DNA of 64,000 bases, taken from the sequence record OR062946.1; one strand, written 5' to 3'. The position numbers and the translations under genes were made by a program. The notes below the pieces were generated by a model. The model saw only the letters and a program-made list of their open reading frames with translations. It was not told the origin of the DNA and searched no databases. This stretch comes from Escherichia phage 310Ecol104PP. How positions within the stretch are numbered: the stretch's first letter is position 1; each line of letters opens with the position of its first letter. This document shows, piece by piece, positions 46,982 through 51,833 of the stretch.

Positions 46982-47455
46982 TTATTTGAATGATTTGACG
47001 TACTGAATAGAACCTTTACTATTCACAAAGGCAATTTTACCATTTTTGTTATACATGGTAGCAGTACGTTGATAACCATAAGTTTGTTTACCAGATTGAT
47101 AACCAACTAATGCAAAATTATCTTCACCCATTTTATTCTGCTTAGCGCGAATGCGTTCATGGCCATGTGCCATAAGAACCTTAGCATCACCCGTTGCAAT
47201 GGATCTACGAGTTTTTTCATCTTCAACTGTATTAACAAAGTCGTCAAATGAATCAAATTTAGCATGAGATTTATTATACAGTTTTCCATCTACTGCATAA
47301 TTATATCCTTGTACATCCATCTCAACTTCTGTACCGTCATCCAATACAGCAGTGATTTTCTGTCCTTTTTTAAATTTCAAAAGATCAGTAAAAGATTCAG
47401 CAATAATTTGAGAATTAATAGCTGCTTCAGTAATAAATTCTTGATATGTTTTCAT
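46982..47455 (-). CDS. internal (capsid-injected) protein with capsid targeting sequence
   Basis: 157 aa; N-term MKTYQEFITEA matches T4 CTS consensus MKTYQEFIAEA. Confidence 0.65.
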   Translation of the reverse strand: MKTYQEFITEAAINSQIIAESFTDLLKFKKGQKITAVLDDGTEVEMDVQGYNYAVDGKLYNKSHAKFDSFDDFVNTVEDEKTRRSIATGDAKVLMAHGHERIRAKQNKMGEDNFALVGYQSGKQTYGYQRTATMYNKNGKIAFVNSKGSIQYVKSFK

Positions 47456-47471
47456 GTGTATCCTTTAATTT

Positions 47472-47789
47472 TTATTCTTTAGGGAAGTTTTTAGAATATG
47501 CATCATAAAGCTTATTTCCAATACGGCGGAAAACTCTAGCCGCAAAACGATTTTCTGGGTTTTTAATCATGATTTGCATCATATAAGTACCCGCGTCAGA
47601 AAGAGCTTCTTCATAGTACCCGTTAATTTCTTTAAGAGTCCTACGTTTACCACCAGGACCATCAACAGTGATTTTCCATTTACCTGTAGAAGTGCGACTT
47701 GGCGGCTCAACTTGTTCAATCCAGATATAACCACCTTCTACACGTTGTCCTGCAGCAGATTCTGCAATAAATTCTTTATACGTTTTCAT
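47472..47789 (-). CDS. internal (capsid-injected) protein with capsid targeting sequence
   Basis: 105 aa; N-term MKTYKEFIAES; basic. Confidence 0.65.
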   Translation of the reverse strand: MKTYKEFIAESAAGQRVEGGYIWIEQVEPPSRTSTGKWKITVDGPGGKRRTLKEINGYYEEALSDAGTYMMQIMIKNPENRFAARVFRRIGNKLYDAYSKNFPKE

Positions 47790-47860: not shown

Positions 47861-48391
<531 letters not shown>

Positions 48392-48847
48392 TTAAAAGAG
48401 GTTGTTCATTATTCGGTAAAGTGAAGGACCCATCACATATTGCCACTGAGTGCGAGGAATAAGAGCAAAAGCATCCATCTCTGGAATCATAACGCCATCT
48501 TTATTTTCAAAATAAGACTCGCAATGGCAATTTCTGAACATCTCATGCTCTACTGGAATCGTATAATAAAACAACTGTAGGTCTTTATTACTAGAATATT
48601 TAAATACACCTAGGTCTTCTAGAAGGTCTGGATTATAATTGCTAAAACCGGTCTCTTCTAAGCATTCTCTTCGTGCTGCATCTAATGCGCTTAAATCAGA
48701 ATTTTCTACACGGCCCTTTGGAATATCCCAACGATGTGCCATCATTCCAGGCTTACGAGAACCAGTAACCCGACCCATAAATAAATCTTTATCTTCTGTC
48801 ATAAAAATAATACCAGCTGATAATGTTTTCATTTTAATTTCCTGCAT
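48392..48847 (-). CDS. nudE: Nudix hydrolase NudE
   Basis: 151 aa; Nudix box GRVENSDLSALDAARRECLEETG. Confidence 0.85.
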   Translation of the reverse strand: MQEIKMKTLSAGIIFMTEDKDLFMGRVTGSRKPGMMAHRWDIPKGRVENSDLSALDAARRECLEETGFSNYNPDLLEDLGVFKYSSNKDLQLFYYTIPVEHEMFRNCHCESYFENKDGVMIPEMDAFALIPRTQWQYVMGPSLYRIMNNLF

Positions 48848-49332
48848 TCAGTGATAAAGTTATTTAAATTTTGAGTATATTTCTTTTCATCAAAAATCTT
48901 TTGCTGCCTACGTAACCGCCATGGCATTTCAATGAACACGCACCATATTCCTGATAGTACTGCTGCTGTAAAAATATTAACAAGTATAATTAAAAGAATC
49001 CAATCTTCCGTTCTGCCTACTGGACTTTCTCCAAAGAAGCAAAATACAAATGATGTCACAGGAAGACTAATGATATACCACAGAAGAACCTTCTTATCTG
49101 TGAACCAATCAGCATTCGTTAACTTAGCGCGACCATTTTGAATACACACGAATTTATCATCTGTTACAGTAAATGGCTTAGCTGCTTGATATCCCATTCT
49201 AAACTCCCTAATTAATCGCTTCTTTGTATCTTCAGAACAACCATTCCAGTCAACTCTATCAACTGGAATGCCATCATCCCCATCATCTAAATCATACCAG
49301 CGAGTTTTTAAAATCATCTGATTTTCCTGCAA
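48829..49332 (-). CDS. membrane protein, 167 aa (paralog family, C-terminal CRK motif)
   Basis: two hydrophobic helices; C-term FITECRKLK. Confidence 0.5.
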   Translation of the reverse strand: MQENQMILKTRWYDLDDGDDGIPVDRVDWNGCSEDTKKRLIREFRMGYQAAKPFTVTDDKFVCIQNGRAKLTNADWFTDKKVLLWYIISLPVTSFVFCFFGESPVGRTEDWILLIILVNIFTAAVLSGIWCVFIEMPWRLRRQQKIFDEKKYTQNLNNFITECRKLK

Positions 49333-49676
49333 TCACTCACAAACTCTTTCATTGCTTCATTTTCAATATAAGAAATGTAGCTATTATATTCCTTTAATTG
49401 TATTTTGTAATCCTTTTTTCTTTGCCAATTTATTTTAAAATTATCATAATGAAAATATAAAATGATACCAAAGAATGAAAATAATGAAATAATTTTAGTA
49501 TAACAAAGCTCATTCCAAACTTCTGTTATATTTACTGTGCCGTCGATGTTTAAAATAAGACAGTCAATTAACAATCCAAAAAGACTACCCGCAAGAGCTG
49601 CAGCCAACGCCACAGCAAAAATTAAAAATGACTCAGAAAACGAATATTTGACTTTATTTAGTTTTGGCTTTTGCAT
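49314..49676 (-). CDS. membrane protein, 120 aa (paralog family)
   Basis: hydrophobic helices; C-term EFVSDCRKIR. Confidence 0.5.
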   Translation of the reverse strand: MQKPKLNKVKYSFSESFLIFAVALAAALAGSLFGLLIDCLILNIDGTVNITEVWNELCYTKIISLFSFFGIILYFHYDNFKINWQRKKDYKIQLKEYNSYISYIENEAMKEFVSDCRKIR

Positions 49677-50071
49677 CGTGATTCCTTAACAAATTTCATA
49701 ATTTCATTAAATTCATACTCAGCAAGTTTAAGCTGGTGTTCCTTTTTAATCTTTTTACACTGAGCTTTCCAATCGTGTACACGTTTACGATAATGTCTTC
49801 CTTGATACCAGTATCCTACCCAATTTACGGGTACTAATAAAAGTGGAACTACCAATGGAAGAATTAGCATTAACACAAGTATTTCGCCAGAATCAATATC
49901 AGTCATAACATCTAAAACACCTCCAATAATCAATAGAATTACAAATGATATAAGTATAACAGGACCTATTAATACATCAGTAGAAATTATCTGGTGCTTT
50001 GATTCATACTTCAAAGGTTTACTTGGAAGGTATAGTGATGGTTTTGACATATTCTCTACATTCCTTAACAA
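49658..50071 (-). CDS. membrane protein, 137 aa (paralog family)
   Basis: hydrophobic helices; C-term KFVKESRCKSQN. Confidence 0.5.
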   Translation of the reverse strand: MLRNVENMSKPSLYLPSKPLKYESKHQIISTDVLIGPVILISFVILLIIGGVLDVMTDIDSGEILVLMLILPLVVPLLLVPVNWVGYWYQGRHYRKRVHDWKAQCKKIKKEHQLKLAEYEFNEIMKFVKESRCKSQN

Positions 50072-50624
50072 ATTTTTCTAATAATAAATCGCTTTCAAAA
50101 TTGGGATTTTCCACGAATTTATCAAAAAGATCATCAACAATAGTTAAGATATTCTTTTTACTAAGAATACGTTTATTTTCATGCTTTGTTTCAGAATCAA
50201 CTATAAGAGTAAAGAAATATTTCTTTCCCTGAAATTTTACCGTAGTATCAATATAAAATAAATTTGACTTTTGTAAATTACGTTTAAACCATGCGTCACT
50301 TAAACTATAAACGCCAAGATAATCATAATCGTCGTTTAAATAACAAACCGTCCATTCAGGAGAAATGAAATCAGTAAATTCAACATCAAAATCACATGTC
50401 AATGAATGAATTGATTCAATACTTTTAATGAGTATTCCAGGACGTATTAAAGACTTTTTACCTTTATAAAATCCAGAAAGACTTTCATCAGTTTCATATG
50501 AAGACCCCCAATAGTAATTACGTCCTTCTGCCATGCGTTTAAGAGCATTTAGTAATTGGTCTGGAACATCAACCTGTCTTTGGAACTCTTCAAACATTGA
50601 ATTGAAATCACTTTGCATTTTCAT
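50019..50624 (-). CDS. hypothetical protein, 201 aa
   Basis: ORF track. Confidence 0.55.
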   Translation of the reverse strand: MKMQSDFNSMFEEFQRQVDVPDQLLNALKRMAEGRNYYWGSSYETDESLSGFYKGKKSLIRPGILIKSIESIHSLTCDFDVEFTDFISPEWTVCYLNDDYDYLGVYSLSDAWFKRNLQKSNLFYIDTTVKFQGKKYFFTLIVDSETKHENKRILSKKNILTIVDDLFDKFVENPNFESDLLLEKFVKECREYVKTITIPSK

Positions 50625-50635
50625 TCCTATTTACT

Positions 50636-50660
50636 CCAAGTAATAGGGGCCGAAGCCCCT
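50636..50660 (-). terminator. intrinsic terminator-like hairpin
   Basis: AGGGGC-CGAA-GCCCCT hairpin; weak U-tract. Confidence 0.45.
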
Positions 50661-50665
50661 TATCA

Positions 50666-51259
50666 TTATTTCAGAGAATTAATATATTCCTGGACATCGG
50701 CAGAGGTAGTTTCAACCCCGGAAATATTACCGTTAAAGGTTTCAACTCGAGCAAGGGTATCTTCAATATCAACCTTAGTCAGTGCTGCAATTTCAACTAC
50801 ATCATCGGCAGTACTAATTCCAAGGGCATTTGCCGCACGAGTTTCACGGATATATTCCAATTTAACTGCAAGTTCTTGACGAGCATCATCTAACTCAACT
50901 ACTTTCTTGGCGATTTCAATTCGCATTTCAGCATAACCGTCAGCTTTAGTAGTCAATTGCTCAGATGTTCGACGATATAGTAAACCGAGTTTAGCATGCA
51001 TTGTTACATCTTGACCTTCGGAAAGAAGTTTACGAATTTCACGCTCTTTTGATTCGGCCTGTCGATTCTTTTCGATAACAAGTTCACGAATACGTTTTTC
51101 TTCATTAATAGATTTAACAGAAGCAGTTTTTAGATCTTTAATTTTATCAAGTAGTTTTGCTGCTGCAACAGTATACTGTTCTTCAACAGATAGATTTTTA
51201 GCCATAGCAGAACCAAGTTTAGTGCGAATAAACTCAACAATTTTCTTCAGTGTGTTCAT
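50666..51259 (-). CDS. coiled-coil protein, 197 aa
   Basis: ORF track; heptad-rich, charged. Confidence 0.55.
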
Positions 51260-51302
51260 AGTATTTCCTTAGGTTGATTAAGATTTAAAATCTGTGGAAG
51301 AA

Positions 51303-51833
51303 TTATATCCCATTATTTGAGAGATGTAAACTATTTTTAATTTTACAAATTCGTTCAGCTTCATCGATAGCAGCATTAATAATGCTTTTAGCTATAGGAG
51401 TACTAATACTAGTAGCTTTTACACTTAACACGATTTCTTTATTTTTACCAGGCCAACCCCACGATTTTTCACCGTGAGTGCCTTTAATTACAGCAGACAC
51501 CTCAAGTGAGCATCCATTATCACATGTTTTTACATTAACAACCCAAGGGTCACTTTTCTCAATCGGTTTCTCAATCGGTTTATCCCAGTAAATATTAAGA
51601 ATACGTGGAACATCAAATTTGGCAGGACAAATCTTAACCGTAAGACCTTCGCTTTCTAGCCAATTAATAAGAGGGCGTTCATACAGGCGACGATGTGGGC
51701 TTGGGATTCGACAAGCCTTATGTCCGTTGCTTGCGGCTTCACTAAGCTGTTCTAATACCTGCTTTTGCATTATTGATAAAATACCATCAAAAGATCTTTC
51801 GGAAGTTTCATTCAGTTCAGTATAAAGAGACAT
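51303..51833 (-). CDS. hypothetical protein, 176 aa
   Basis: ORF track; contains KPIEKPIEK tandem repeat. Confidence 0.55.
   Translation of the reverse strand: MSLYTELNETSERSFDGILSIMQKQVLEQLSEAASNGHKACRIPSPHRRLYERPLINWLESEGLTVKICPAKFDVPRILNIYWDKPIEKPIEKSDPWVVNVKTCDNGCSLEVSAVIKGTHGEKSWGWPGKNKEIVLSVKATSISTPIAKSIINAAIDEAERICKIKNSLHLSNNGI

What the first reader, a model, noticed from the sequence alone, without database searches (positions are those of the whole stretch)
48829..50071. Three overlapping paralogous membrane proteins with a conserved C-terminal F-x-x-x-C-R-K motif
Three consecutive genes (167, 120 and 137 aa) each encode hydrophobic helices and end with a related cytoplasmic tail (FITECRKLK, EFVSDCRKIR, KFVKESRCKSQ). 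Their reading frames overlap by about 18 nt, which suggests translational coupling. They sit just downstream of nudE and lysozyme.
Basis: seen in the sequence. Interest (0 to 1): 0.4.

Follow-up and report, generated by a model that had tools for sequence, protein, structure and literature searches.

The report
Shared tail on T4 e.2–e.5 proteins
Three small membrane-protein genes of a T4-like phage (known as e.4, e.3 and e.2, function unknown) and the soluble gene before them all end in the same short peptide, whose codons also serve as the ribosome-binding site of the next gene and as the repeats at which whole genes are lost in related phages.

Summary
The window is a Tequatrovirus (T4-like phage). 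The three ORFs are the known hypothetical genes e.4, e.3 and e.2, on the minus strand. They lie upstream of nudE and lysozyme e in transcription, not downstream. True lengths are 130, 120 and 162 aa, from ATG starts. Only e.4/e.3 overlap by 19 nt; e.3/e.2 and e.2/nudE overlap by ATGA, and e.5/e.4 by 32 nt.

Each protein has two hydrophobic helices, and the charge distribution predicts N-in/C-in topology. The C-terminal motif is real and far from chance. F[IV]x[ED]C[RK] occurs three times in all six frames of the 64 kb, always at the ends of adjacent genes.

The tail is kept across four Tevenvirinae genera and in very distant e.2 relatives ([FW]IKxCRK-stop), through synonymous Cys and Arg codon changes. 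Its codons also supply the Shine-Dalgarno sequence of the next cistron. The repeated junctions flank e.2 and e.4 exactly where natural phages have lost them.

Outside the tail, homology between the three proteins is not demonstrable. Function remains unknown; a shared cytoplasmic docking or assembly peptide is my best guess.

The parts
50019..50624 (-). e.5: 201-aa soluble protein with no hydrophobic segment. It is the first carrier of the tail motif (FVKECREYVKTITIPSK*).
   Evidence: ORF. phrog_2607 at E=1e-107. Homologues carry PF26876. No TM segment. AF2 pLDDT 62, with the tail as helix 180-195.
49658..50050 (-). e.4: 130 aa, two TM helices (aa 26-48 and 57-80), basic cytoplasmic tail ending FVKESRCKSQN*.
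   Evidence: phrog_2604 at E=4e-69. Annotated e.4 in T4 and RB69.
49314..49676 (-). e.3: 120 aa, two TM helices (aa 17-42 and 60-76), tail ending FVSDCRKIR*.
   Evidence: phrog_2330 at E=2e-57. 45 close homologues.
48829..49317 (-). e.2: 162 aa. A 76-aa cytoplasmic N-domain (W..LDDGD.GI..VDW..C), two TM helices (aa 77-96 and 106-128), and a tail ending FITECRKLK*.
   Evidence: phrog_2203 at E=1e-76. Homologues carry PF26896 Phage_T4_Y06M. AF2 pLDDT 71, helices 75-96 and 103-161.
50019..50072 (-). e.5 tail motif and e.5/e.4 junction. AAGGA (50062-50066) is the Shine-Dalgarno sequence for the e.4 ATG at 50050. The overlap is 32 nt.
49658..49693 (-). e.4 tail motif and e.4/e.3 junction. AAGGA lies 6 nt before the e.3 ATG at 49676. 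The overlap is 19 nt.
49314..49343 (-). e.3 tail motif and e.3/e.2 junction. The AGGA inside codons C-R-K is the Shine-Dalgarno sequence. ATGA stop/start overlap at 49314-49317.
   Evidence: repeat D2.
48829..48858 (-). e.2 tail motif and e.2/nudE junction. The AGGA inside C-R-K is the Shine-Dalgarno sequence. ATGA overlap at 48829-48832.
   Evidence: repeat D2: 77% identical to the e.3 tail over 30 nt, in register.
49681..49696 (-). One copy of a perfect 16-nt direct repeat AAATTTGTTAAGGAAT. The other copy is at 50060-50075. Together they flank e.4.
   Evidence: Only two occurrences in the 64 kb (D9).
50060..50075 (-). Second copy of the 16-nt direct repeat that flanks e.4.
49323..49331 (-). 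One copy of the 9-nt perfect core TGCAGGAAA of the junction repeat that flanks e.2. The other copy is at 48838-48846.
   Evidence: Only two occurrences in the 64 kb. A natural e.2 deletion has its crossover exactly here.
48838..48846 (-). Second copy of the TGCAGGAAA junction repeat.
48392..48832 (-). nudE (Nudix hydrolase), the last translationally linked cistron of the chain. An alternative in-frame ATG lies at 48847.
   Evidence: PF00293 at E=1e-13. T4 annotation.
47861..48355 (-). e, T4-type lysozyme, downstream of the cluster.
   Evidence: ORF translation. Annotation in T4.
50666..51259 (-). e.6: 197-aa protein upstream of the cluster, separated from e.5 by a GGGGC-UUCG-GCCCC hairpin (50645-50660).
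   Evidence: 74-87% identical across genera.
51302..51330 (-). Sigma-70-like promoter TTTACA-17-TATAAT (11 of 12 matches) upstream of e.6. It is a candidate early promoter for the e.6-to-e transcript.
   Evidence: This is a consensus match only.

Best explanation
The finding covers genes e.4, e.3 and e.2 of a T4-like phage. They are non-essential genes, transcribed early. Each encodes a two-helix hairpin protein of the inner membrane with both ends in the cytoplasm.

They are translated from one polycistronic message (e.6-e.5-e.4-e.3-e.2-nudE). In it, every start codon overlaps the end of the preceding gene.

All three proteins, and the soluble e.5 upstream, end in the same cytoplasmic helix terminus: hydrophobic-[I/V]-K-[E/G/D]-C-R-K.

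This about 25-nt stretch does three things.
1. It encodes a peptide that is itself under purifying selection.
2. Its K-E or C-R-K codons (AAGGA, AGGA) are the ribosome-binding site of the next cistron.
3. Because it is repeated at each junction, it is the homology at which whole cassettes are precisely lost, and probably gained, leaving reading frames and coupling intact.

The peptide's own role is inferred, not shown. Most likely it is a common docking or assembly signal that brings e.5 and the hairpin proteins to the same partner, or to each other, at the cytoplasmic face of the membrane.
For: Identity and expression:
- The region is 93-97% identical to Tequatrovirus genomes, with e.2-e.5 annotated there.
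- In T4, the RNAs of e.2-e.8 are early and all four proteins are detected by mass spectrometry (PMC9697503, supplementary files 4 and 6).
- Knock-down causes no fitness loss, and function is listed as Unknown (PMC11879866, supplementary files 8 and 15).

Topology:
- Two hydrophobic helices in each protein.
- The loops hold 0-1 K/R and 3 D/E. The N- and C-terminal flanks are K/R-rich.
- AF2 models e.2 TM2 and the tail as one helix, 103-161.

Motif:
- 3 of 3 strict matches in the 64 kb lie at adjacent gene ends.
- The tail is the most conserved block in e.2, e.3 and e.5 between genera that are otherwise 19-50% identical.
- All 11 distant full-length e.2 relatives examined, from a scan of 1.84 billion proteins, end in [FW]IKxCR[KN].
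- A divergent phage has four carriers, including a 273-aa soluble protein and a new 109-aa hairpin protein.

Selection on the peptide:
- Arg is encoded by AGA, AGG, CGT, CGC and CGA. Cys is encoded by TGT and TGC.
- The motif persists in at least 10 distinct junctions where the Shine-Dalgarno sequence lies outside it.

Ribosome-binding role:
- The Shine-Dalgarno core lies inside the motif codons in most junctions.
- AAGGA is retained, one base along, when K-E becomes K-G.
- The overlaps are conserved. The junction RNAs are unstructured (z = 0.1-1.2).

Recombination:
- e.2 is precisely deleted at the TGCAGGAAA repeat in a ZN18-like phage.
- e.4 is missing, with a fused junction, in three divergent T4-like contigs (L014, L017, L018).
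- An e.4::e.2 hybrid joined inside TM1 exists.
- The repeats are unique in the window.
Against: - No partner, and no phenotype, is known for any of these proteins.
- e.2 is truncated by a frameshift in the T4 reference. Whole cassettes are dispensable in nature, so any complex cannot be obligatory.
- e.4 has a degenerate tail: the Cys is shifted in T4 and RB69 and lost from the motif in VR7-like phages.
- Within a genome the tails tend to share the same Arg codon (RB69 all AGA; Gaprivervirus all CGT). This fits homogenisation by recombination as well as it fits selection on the peptide.
- The variable fourth position (E, G or D, all G-initial codons) looks constrained by RNA rather than by protein.
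- Topology is predicted only from hydropathy and charge.
- Translational coupling is inferred from anatomy, not measured.
Confidence: 0.5

Rival explanations
1. The tail peptide has no function of its own. It is conserved because the same nucleotides must provide the ribosome-binding site and A-rich spacer of the next gene, and because recombination or gene conversion between the repeated junctions keeps them alike.
For: - The Shine-Dalgarno core lies inside the motif in most junctions.
- Position 4 varies among E, G and D, which share only a G-initial codon. AAGGA is kept with a one-base register shift.
- Tails within one genome tend to use the same Arg codon.
- Perfect 16-nt and 9-nt repeats flank e.4 and e.2, and deletions occur at them.
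Against: - Cys and Arg lie in the spacer, where no RNA constraint is known. They are kept through five Arg codons and both Cys codons.
- The motif is retained where the Shine-Dalgarno sequence lies downstream of it (e.5-position proteins of Dhakavirus and Gaprivervirus; L021).
- It is retained in very distant e.2 relatives whose downstream gene is different.
- Phe/Trp at position 1 is conserved, which has no RNA rationale.
Confidence: 0.25
2. e.2, e.3 and e.4 are whole-gene paralogues made by tandem duplication of one hairpin-plus-tail gene. Their membrane parts have since diverged beyond recognition.
For: - All three have the same architecture and predicted topology.
- e.3 and e.4 also share the N-terminal M-[SQ]-K-P-x-L and a collinear 43-column tail alignment (P=3.5e-6).
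- e.3 hits the e.4 PHROG over its full length at E=0.0019.
- The number of hairpin genes varies between phages.
- An e.4::e.2 hybrid keeps a functional-looking hairpin.
Against: - With the tail removed, no pair is significant.
- Reversed decoys score as well as the real proteins.
- The soluble e.5 and a 273-aa soluble protein carry the same tail. The tail is therefore not a marker of one membrane-protein lineage.
- e.2 has an unrelated 76-aa N-domain.
Confidence: 0.35
3. The basic C-terminal tail is a degradation or timing signal, for example a tag recognised by a host AAA+ protease, that limits the lifetime of these early proteins.
For: - The motif sits at, or within 11 residues of, the extreme C-terminus and is basic.
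- The proteins are products of early genes.
- That some ClpX substrates carry basic C-terminal tags is my own recollection and was not tested here.
Against: - e.3 protein is classed as 'late' and e.2 as 'middle' in T4 proteomics, so they persist.
- In e.5 and e.4 the motif is followed by 5-11 further residues, so it is not terminal.
- There is no direct evidence.
Confidence: 0.08
4. The three membrane proteins belong to the lysis machinery (holin, antiholin or similar), because they sit beside the endolysin gene. Some database records name the e.2 homologue 'holin'.
For: - They are small proteins with two TM helices and a charged C-terminus.
- The order e.2-(x)-nudE-lysozyme is conserved even in a distant phage.
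- One record carries a 'holin' annotation.
Against: - The transcripts are early.
- e.2 is frameshifted in T4 and deleted in PST- and ZN18-like phages, which are viable.
- Knock-downs cause no fitness loss.
- From established T4 genetics (my knowledge), the holin is gene t and the antiholins are rI and rIII, located elsewhere.
- No holin family matched in Pfam, NCBIfam or PHROGs.
Confidence: 0.04

Closest known systems
Bacteriophage T4 genes e.2, e.3, e.4 and e.5 (UniProt P32273, P32274, P39222, P39223; Pfam PF26896 Phage_T4_Y06M for e.2; PF26873 and PF26876 reported on homologues of e.4 and e.5; PHROGs 2203, 2330, 2604, 2607)
   Same: These are orthologues: 82-100% protein identity within Tequatrovirus, with the same order and the same overlaps.
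   Different: In the T4 reference, e.2 is cut to 102 aa by a frameshift; here it is intact at 162 aa. None of these families has a described function. I found no mention of the shared tail in the papers I could search.
Translationally coupled overlapping cistrons (ATGA-type stop/start overlaps), common in T4 and other phages
   Same: The start overlaps the stop or lies 14-32 nt inside the upstream gene. The Shine-Dalgarno sequence is inside the upstream coding sequence. The junction RNA is unstructured.
   Different: Here the same junction sequence recurs at four successive gene ends. It also encodes a peptide that is conserved across families and genera.
Modular gene shuffling in the hyperplastic regions of T4-type genomes via short repeated regulatory cassettes (promoter-early stem-loops, described by the Krisch laboratory; cited from memory, paper not read here)
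   Same: Short repeated sequences at gene boundaries mark points of gene gain and loss among related phages.
   Different: The repeats here are not promoter or stem-loop cassettes between genes. They are coding gene ends plus the ribosome-binding site, and no stable RNA structure is predicted.
Small early inner-membrane proteins of T4 such as Imm and Sp (superinfection exclusion); from my knowledge
   Same: They are small, non-essential membrane proteins made early in infection.
   Different: No sequence relation was tested or seen. Imm and Sp have no described FIKECRK-type tail. The analogy concerns protein class only.
Tandem family of small proteins ending in W-V-S-S-S-x-x-C-stop, directly downstream of e.3 in RB69-, VR7- and Dhakavirus-like phages
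   Same: It is another array of adjacent genes that share a C-terminal motif, each followed by TAAGGAA...ATG for the next gene.
   Different: These are soluble acidic proteins with a different motif. The family is absent from this window.

Membership tests
T4 e.2 family (Pfam PF26896 Phage_T4_Y06M; phrog_2203) | Significant full-length sequence match to the family profile | tested here: met
   phrog_2203 at E=1e-76 over residues 1-160. Homologues 83-90% identical carry PF26896. The local Pfam copy lacks this model.
T4 e.2 family (Pfam PF26896 Phage_T4_Y06M; phrog_2203) | N-domain W..LDDGD.GI..VDW..C, then a TM hairpin, then an [FW]IKxCRK C-terminus | tested here: met
   These columns are invariant in a 21-sequence alignment. 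They are present in the distant relatives found in the 1.84-billion-protein scan.
T4 e.3 family (phrog_2330) | Full-length profile match | tested here: met
   E=1.6e-57 over residues 1-118. 45 homologues at 67-94% identity. RB69 at 37% and VR7 at 24% identity.
T4 e.4 family (phrog_2604; PF26873 seen on an e.4::e.2 hybrid) | Full-length profile match | tested here: met
   E=3.7e-69 over residues 2-131 of the translation submitted, which carried one extra N-terminal residue. 100% identical to phage NBG2 e.4 and 52% identical to RB69 e.4.
One paralogous family comprising e.2, e.3 and e.4 | Significant similarity outside the shared tail | tested here: not met
   hhalign with tails removed gives P 0.002-0.02 and probability 2-13%. 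Reversed decoys reach E of about 1e-4.
One paralogous family comprising e.2, e.3 and e.4 | Same architecture and topology (N-in, two TM helices, basic cytoplasmic tail with the motif) | tested here: met
   Topology is predicted, not measured.
Translationally coupled operon | Stop/start overlap with the Shine-Dalgarno sequence inside the upstream ORF, conserved in relatives | tested here: met
   Overlaps of 32, 19, 4 and 4 nt. AAGGA or AGGA lies 6-11 nt before each ATG. This is conserved in T4, RB69 and Gaprivervirus-like loci.
Translationally coupled operon | Downstream translation depends on upstream translation | not testable with these tools
   This needs reporter fusions with upstream nonsense mutations.
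Holin (as annotated for the e.2 homologue in phage EAWsc9) | Late expression and a requirement for lysis | tested here: not met
   Early RNA in T4. e.2 is frameshifted in T4 and deleted in viable phages. Knock-down causes no fitness loss.
Holin (as annotated for the e.2 homologue in phage EAWsc9) | Match to a described holin family | tested here: not met
   No holin model matched in Pfam, PHROGs or NCBIfam.
Sulfurtransferase (name given to e.3 and e.4 in some records) | Rhodanese or other sulfurtransferase domain | tested here: not met
   No such hit in Pfam or NCBIfam at E<=1. The name appears only in source annotations.

The most novel reading that the evidence does not exclude
The [FW]-I-K-x-C-R-K C-terminus is a genuine, portable targeting or assembly peptide. 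It would define a previously unrecognised set of early proteins in T4-like phages: a soluble e.5-type protein plus a variable number of hairpin membrane proteins. These would assemble through their tails, possibly with the single conserved cysteines held together by a metal or by another shared partner, into a complex on the cytoplasmic face of the inner membrane. Its coding sequence would have been co-opted as both ribosome-binding site and recombination joint, so that new tail-bearing cassettes can be plugged in or dropped while expression is kept.
Probability: 0.3. Interest if true: 0.6.

Novelty: new variant of a known kind. Interest (0 to 1): 0.4.

Why it matters
T4 is the best-studied large phage, yet about half of its genes, including e.2-e.8, have no known function. 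The shared tail gives the first concrete, testable handle on four of them: one peptide to mutate, pull down or model.

It is also a compact example of triple use of one short sequence, as peptide, ribosome-binding site and recombination joint. That could explain how accessory gene cassettes in the variable regions of T4-like genomes are exchanged without breaking operon expression.

If the tail proves to be only a by-product of the ribosome-binding site and recombination, the finding is still useful. It is a caution that motifs conserved at gene ends in phage operons need not be protein signals.

Tried and rejected
- **Chance.** Rejected.
- **RNA structure at the junctions.** Four 101-nt junction RNAs fold no better than shuffles (z = 0.1-1.2).
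- **Known families.** Pfam, NCBIfam and PHROGs give only uncharacterised phage families. The weak hits (DUF2269, NDUFB11, Bfi1 immunity, ABZJ_00895) are all below their cut-offs and lie in TM segments.
- **Solved structures.** e.5 gives nothing by sequence or by fold (best E=0.03, TM<0.2). BFVD returns only uncharacterised proteins of T4-like phages. The afdb50 library was unavailable.
- **e.6 as a PspA-like protein** (my impression by eye). No support from a profile search of PDB sequences or from Pfam. Dropped.
- **T4 prohead protease site (L/I-x-E) inside the tail.** Rejected, because the E is replaced by G, D or M in relatives.
- **Out-of-frame ATG in GAATGY or GGATGY as a start.** It is followed at once by a stop, or lies too close to the Shine-Dalgarno sequence. 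Not pursued.
- **Is the 178-184-aa protein at the e.5 position in Dhakavirus and Gaprivervirus a true e.5 homologue?** Body-only hhalign gives P=0.34, but fold matches among T4-like phages leave this open. Inconclusive.
- **A 19-nt similarity just downstream of the two ATGA junctions** (48799-48817 versus 49283-49301, D6). Probably chance, since each side encodes a family-conserved protein motif in a different frame.
- **Literature.** Searches for the gene names and for the motif returned nothing relevant. The T4 genome review could not be opened.
- **IMG/VR pattern scan for FIK[EG/D]CRK-TGA.** It gave only 5 loci, all T4-like.
Full report
**What is there**

The window is a Tequatrovirus. The 2.4 kb around the finding is 93-97% identical to hundreds of T4-like phage genomes, and the same ORFs there are annotated e.5, e.4, e.3, e.2, nudE and e.

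All these genes are on the minus strand. The order of transcription is:
- e.6 (51259-50666)
- a GGGGC-UUCG-GCCCC hairpin
- e.5 (50624-50019)
- e.4 (50050-49658)
- e.3 (49676-49314)
- e.2 (49317-48829)
- nudE (48832-48392)
- e (48355-47861)

The three genes therefore lie upstream of nudE and lysozyme, not downstream.

The ATG codons used in T4 and RB69 annotation each have AAGGA or AGGA 6-11 nt upstream. They give 162 aa for e.2 and 130 aa for e.4.

With these starts the overlaps are 32 nt (e.5/e.4), 19 nt (e.4/e.3), 4 nt ATGA (e.3/e.2) and 4 nt ATGA (e.2/nudE).

**Membrane character and topology**

e.2, e.3 and e.4 each have two strongly hydrophobic segments. e.5, e.6 and NudE have none.

In all three proteins the short connecting loop holds 0-1 Lys/Arg and 3 Asp/Glu. 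The N-terminal flank and the 34-50-residue C-terminal tail are rich in Lys/Arg. By the positive-inside rule this predicts N-in/C-in hairpins with cytoplasmic tails.

An AlphaFold2 model of e.2 (21-sequence alignment, pLDDT 71) shows helix 75-96, a short loop, and one long helix 103-161 that runs from TM2 through the tail. Topology is predicted, not measured.

**The motif is real and wider than reported**

The pattern F[IV]x[ED]C[RK] occurs three times in the six-frame translation of the whole 64 kb. Shuffles give a mean of 0.18 and a maximum of 1. All three matches lie 3-11 residues before the stop codons of e.5, e.3 and e.2. e.4 has the degenerate form FVKESRC. The soluble e.5 is thus a fourth carrier.

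The tail is the best-conserved block between genera:
- RB69 (Mosigvirus): e.5 ...QFIMECREYVK, e.4 ...EFVKEIRCKS, e.3 ...NFIKECRK-stop.
- VR7 and phage 212 (Gaprivervirus-like): ...RFIAECREYAK, ...EFIKEVRNGTA, ...TFIKECKS-stop.
- The 195-aa e.2 homologues of Dhakavirus and Gaprivervirus: ...SFIKECRK-stop or ...SFIEECRK-stop.

An exhaustive profile search with the e.2 family found only 21 clusters among 1.84 billion representatives. All 11 distant full-length members I examined end in [FW]IKxCR[KN] (FIKGCRK, WIKGCRK, FIKDCRK, FIKMCRNS...).

A divergent T4-like genome (L021) has four carriers:
- a 273-aa soluble protein (...EFVKMCRTKH...)
- a 124-aa hairpin protein (...YFIKECR-stop)
- an e.2-like protein (...DFIKGCRK-stop)
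- a 109-aa hairpin protein (...DFIRGIRS-stop)

**Are the three proteins paralogues?**

Profile-profile comparison gives the following:
- e.3 to e.4: P=3.5e-6 over 43 columns.
- e.3 to e.2: P=1.1e-6 over the last 19 residues.
- e.4 to e.2: P=0.0055.
- e.5 to e.3: 11 columns, P=0.001.

All of these alignments lie after TM2.

When the motif is cut off, nothing significant remains (P 0.002-0.02, probability 2-13%). In a small-database test, reversed-sequence decoys scored as well as the real membrane proteins (E of about 1e-4). The full-length PHROG cross-hit of e.3 on the e.4 family (E=0.0019) is therefore not above compositional noise.

e.3 and e.4 also share M-[SQ]-K-P-x-L at the N-terminus, and all three share one architecture. 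Common descent is therefore plausible. What is demonstrable is a shared C-terminal module, and that module is also attached to soluble proteins.

**One sequence, three roles**

*(a) Peptide.* Across 49 distinct tails, Arg is encoded by AGA (15), CGT (13), AGG (8), CGC (5) and CGA (3). Cys is encoded by TGT (25) and TGC (14). Phe is almost always kept. The motif also persists in at least 10 distinct junctions where the Shine-Dalgarno sequence of the next gene lies outside it. This points to selection on the amino acids Cys and Arg, and on Phe/Trp.

*(b) Ribosome-binding site.* In most junctions the K-E codons (AAG GAA) or the C-R-K codons (TGC AGG AAA) supply the AAGGA or AGGA that sits 6-11 nt before the next ATG. 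In distant e.2 relatives K-E becomes K-G (AAA GGA), which keeps AAGGA one base along. The only tolerated residues at that position are E, G and D, all with G-initial codons. That position therefore looks constrained by RNA. The junction RNAs are unstructured (z = 0.1-1.2), as expected for open initiation sites.

*(c) Recombination joint.* The window holds exactly two copies of AAATTTGTTAAGGAAT, flanking e.4. It holds exactly two copies of TGCAGGAAA, within a 30-nt stretch that is 77% identical and in register, flanking e.2.
- A ZN18-like Yersinia phage lacks e.2, with the crossover inside that repeat. Its e.3 tail becomes ...CRKLK and runs straight into nudE. Several other phages cover only 80% of the region in two pieces.
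- Three divergent T4-like contigs (L014, L017, L018) lack e.4, with the two junctions fused.
- Phage UFV05 carries an e.4(1-30)::e.2(86-162) hybrid joined inside TM1.
- T4 itself has e.2 cut to 102 aa by a frameshift.

Tails within one genome tend to use the same Arg codon: RB69 all AGA, Gaprivervirus all CGT. This hints at homogenisation between junctions.

**What is known about function**

Nothing is described. Pfam, NCBIfam and PHROGs give only uncharacterised phage families.

e.5 has no match among solved structures. Among predicted viral structures, e.5 and e.2 match only uncharacterised proteins of T4-like phages.

In T4, all of e.2-e.8 have early RNA and the proteins are detected: e.4 and e.5 early, e.2 middle, e.3 late (PMC9697503, supplementary files 4 and 6). 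In a genome-wide knock-down screen they are listed as function Unknown and 'Not Fit', meaning no fitness effect (PMC11879866, supplementary files 8 and 15).

The names 'holin', 'antitoxin', 'sulfurtransferase' and 'DNA primase' found in some records have no support in any profile search.

**Most likely mechanism**

*Shown:*
- The genes are real, expressed orthologues of T4 e.2-e.4.
- They carry two hydrophobic helices.
- They share a conserved tail with e.5.
- The tail codons contain the next gene's Shine-Dalgarno sequence.
- The junctions are repeats at which cassettes are lost.

*Inferred:*
- N-in/C-in topology.
- Translational coupling along e.5-e.4-e.3-e.2-nudE.
- The tail peptide is a common docking or assembly signal on the cytoplasmic face of the inner membrane. 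This would tether e.5 and the hairpin proteins to one partner or to each other. I rate this last step at about 0.3.

The main rival is that the peptide is a by-product of ribosome-binding-site and recombination constraints. I rate it at about 0.25. The persistence of Cys, Arg and Phe where the Shine-Dalgarno sequence is elsewhere counts against it.

A lysis role is unlikely, for three reasons: expression is early, the genes are dispensable, and the T4 holin and antiholins are elsewhere.

**Verdict**

'Paralogous' is only partly supported. The genes themselves are already known hypothetical genes.

I did not find the shared dual-use tail, or its role as a cassette joint, described in the papers I could search. 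It is a modestly interesting new variant of known themes: overlapping coupled cistrons and modular shuffling in T4-type genomes.

Noticed in passing
L001:3231-4026; L002:2984-4243; L013:4351-5619 (not present in the window): Directly downstream of e.3 in RB69-, VR7- and Dhakavirus-like phages lies a tandem array of 4-5 small acidic proteins (65-100 aa). All end in G-W-V-S-S-S-x-x-C-stop, and each is followed by TAAGGAA(N5)ATG. This is a second family of adjacent genes sharing a C-terminal motif.
   Followed up: partly
L004:3234-3702 (T4 reference) versus window 48829-49317: In the T4 reference and its close kin, e.2 is truncated to 102 aa by a frameshift. The remaining 60 codons, with an intact FITECRKLK tail, stay open in another frame. 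In this window the gene is intact (162 aa).
   Followed up: partly
window 50666-51259 (-): e.6 is 74-87% identical between genera whose neighbouring e.3-e.5 are only 19-52% identical. It is under much stronger constraint than its neighbours. No family or solved-structure match was found, and my first impression of a PspA-like protein found no support.
   Followed up: partly
window 50645-50660: A perfect GGGGC-UUCG-GCCCC tetraloop hairpin lies between e.6 and e.5. Downstream of it on the coding (minus) strand lies only a short T-poor stretch. It is more likely an RNA-stability or processing element than a terminator.
   Followed up: no
P0188 (223 aa, from the exhaustive search): A soluble protein made of three tandem copies of the e.2 N-terminal domain (GDDDGxxGI...CDW...), with no membrane part and no tail. 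The e.2 N-domain is therefore an independent module.
   Followed up: no
P0127 (Escherichia phage UFV05): A natural 106-aa hybrid: the first 30 residues of e.4 are joined inside TM1 to residues 86-162 of e.2. e.3 and most of e.4 and e.2 are deleted, but a two-helix protein with the tail remains.
   Followed up: partly
L005:1719-2408; L007:1716-2408; L020:254-940: In Dhakavirus, Gaprivervirus and a distant T4-like contig, the e.2 homologue is always preceded by a well-conserved 229-aa protein (annotated phytanoyl-CoA dioxygenase in one record) and followed by a small acidic protein, NUDIX and lysozyme. This is a conserved neighbourhood that T4 lacks.
   Followed up: no
window 46982-47455 and 47472-47789 (-): Two ORFs (157 and 105 aa) both start MKTY[QK]EFI[TA]E. 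This looks like the capsid-targeting N-terminus of T4 internal head proteins. They lie at the position of ipIII and ipII, downstream of e.
   Followed up: no
public records seen: Orthologues of e.2-e.4 are variously named sulfurtransferase, holin, antitoxin, DNA primase or host specificity protein in deposited annotations. No profile search here supports any of these names.
   Followed up: yes
window 48799-48817 versus 49283-49301: A 19-nt similarity (84%) lies just after the two ATGA junctions, in the 5' ends of nudE and e.2 and in different reading frames. It is probably chance, because each side encodes a family-conserved motif.
   Followed up: partly
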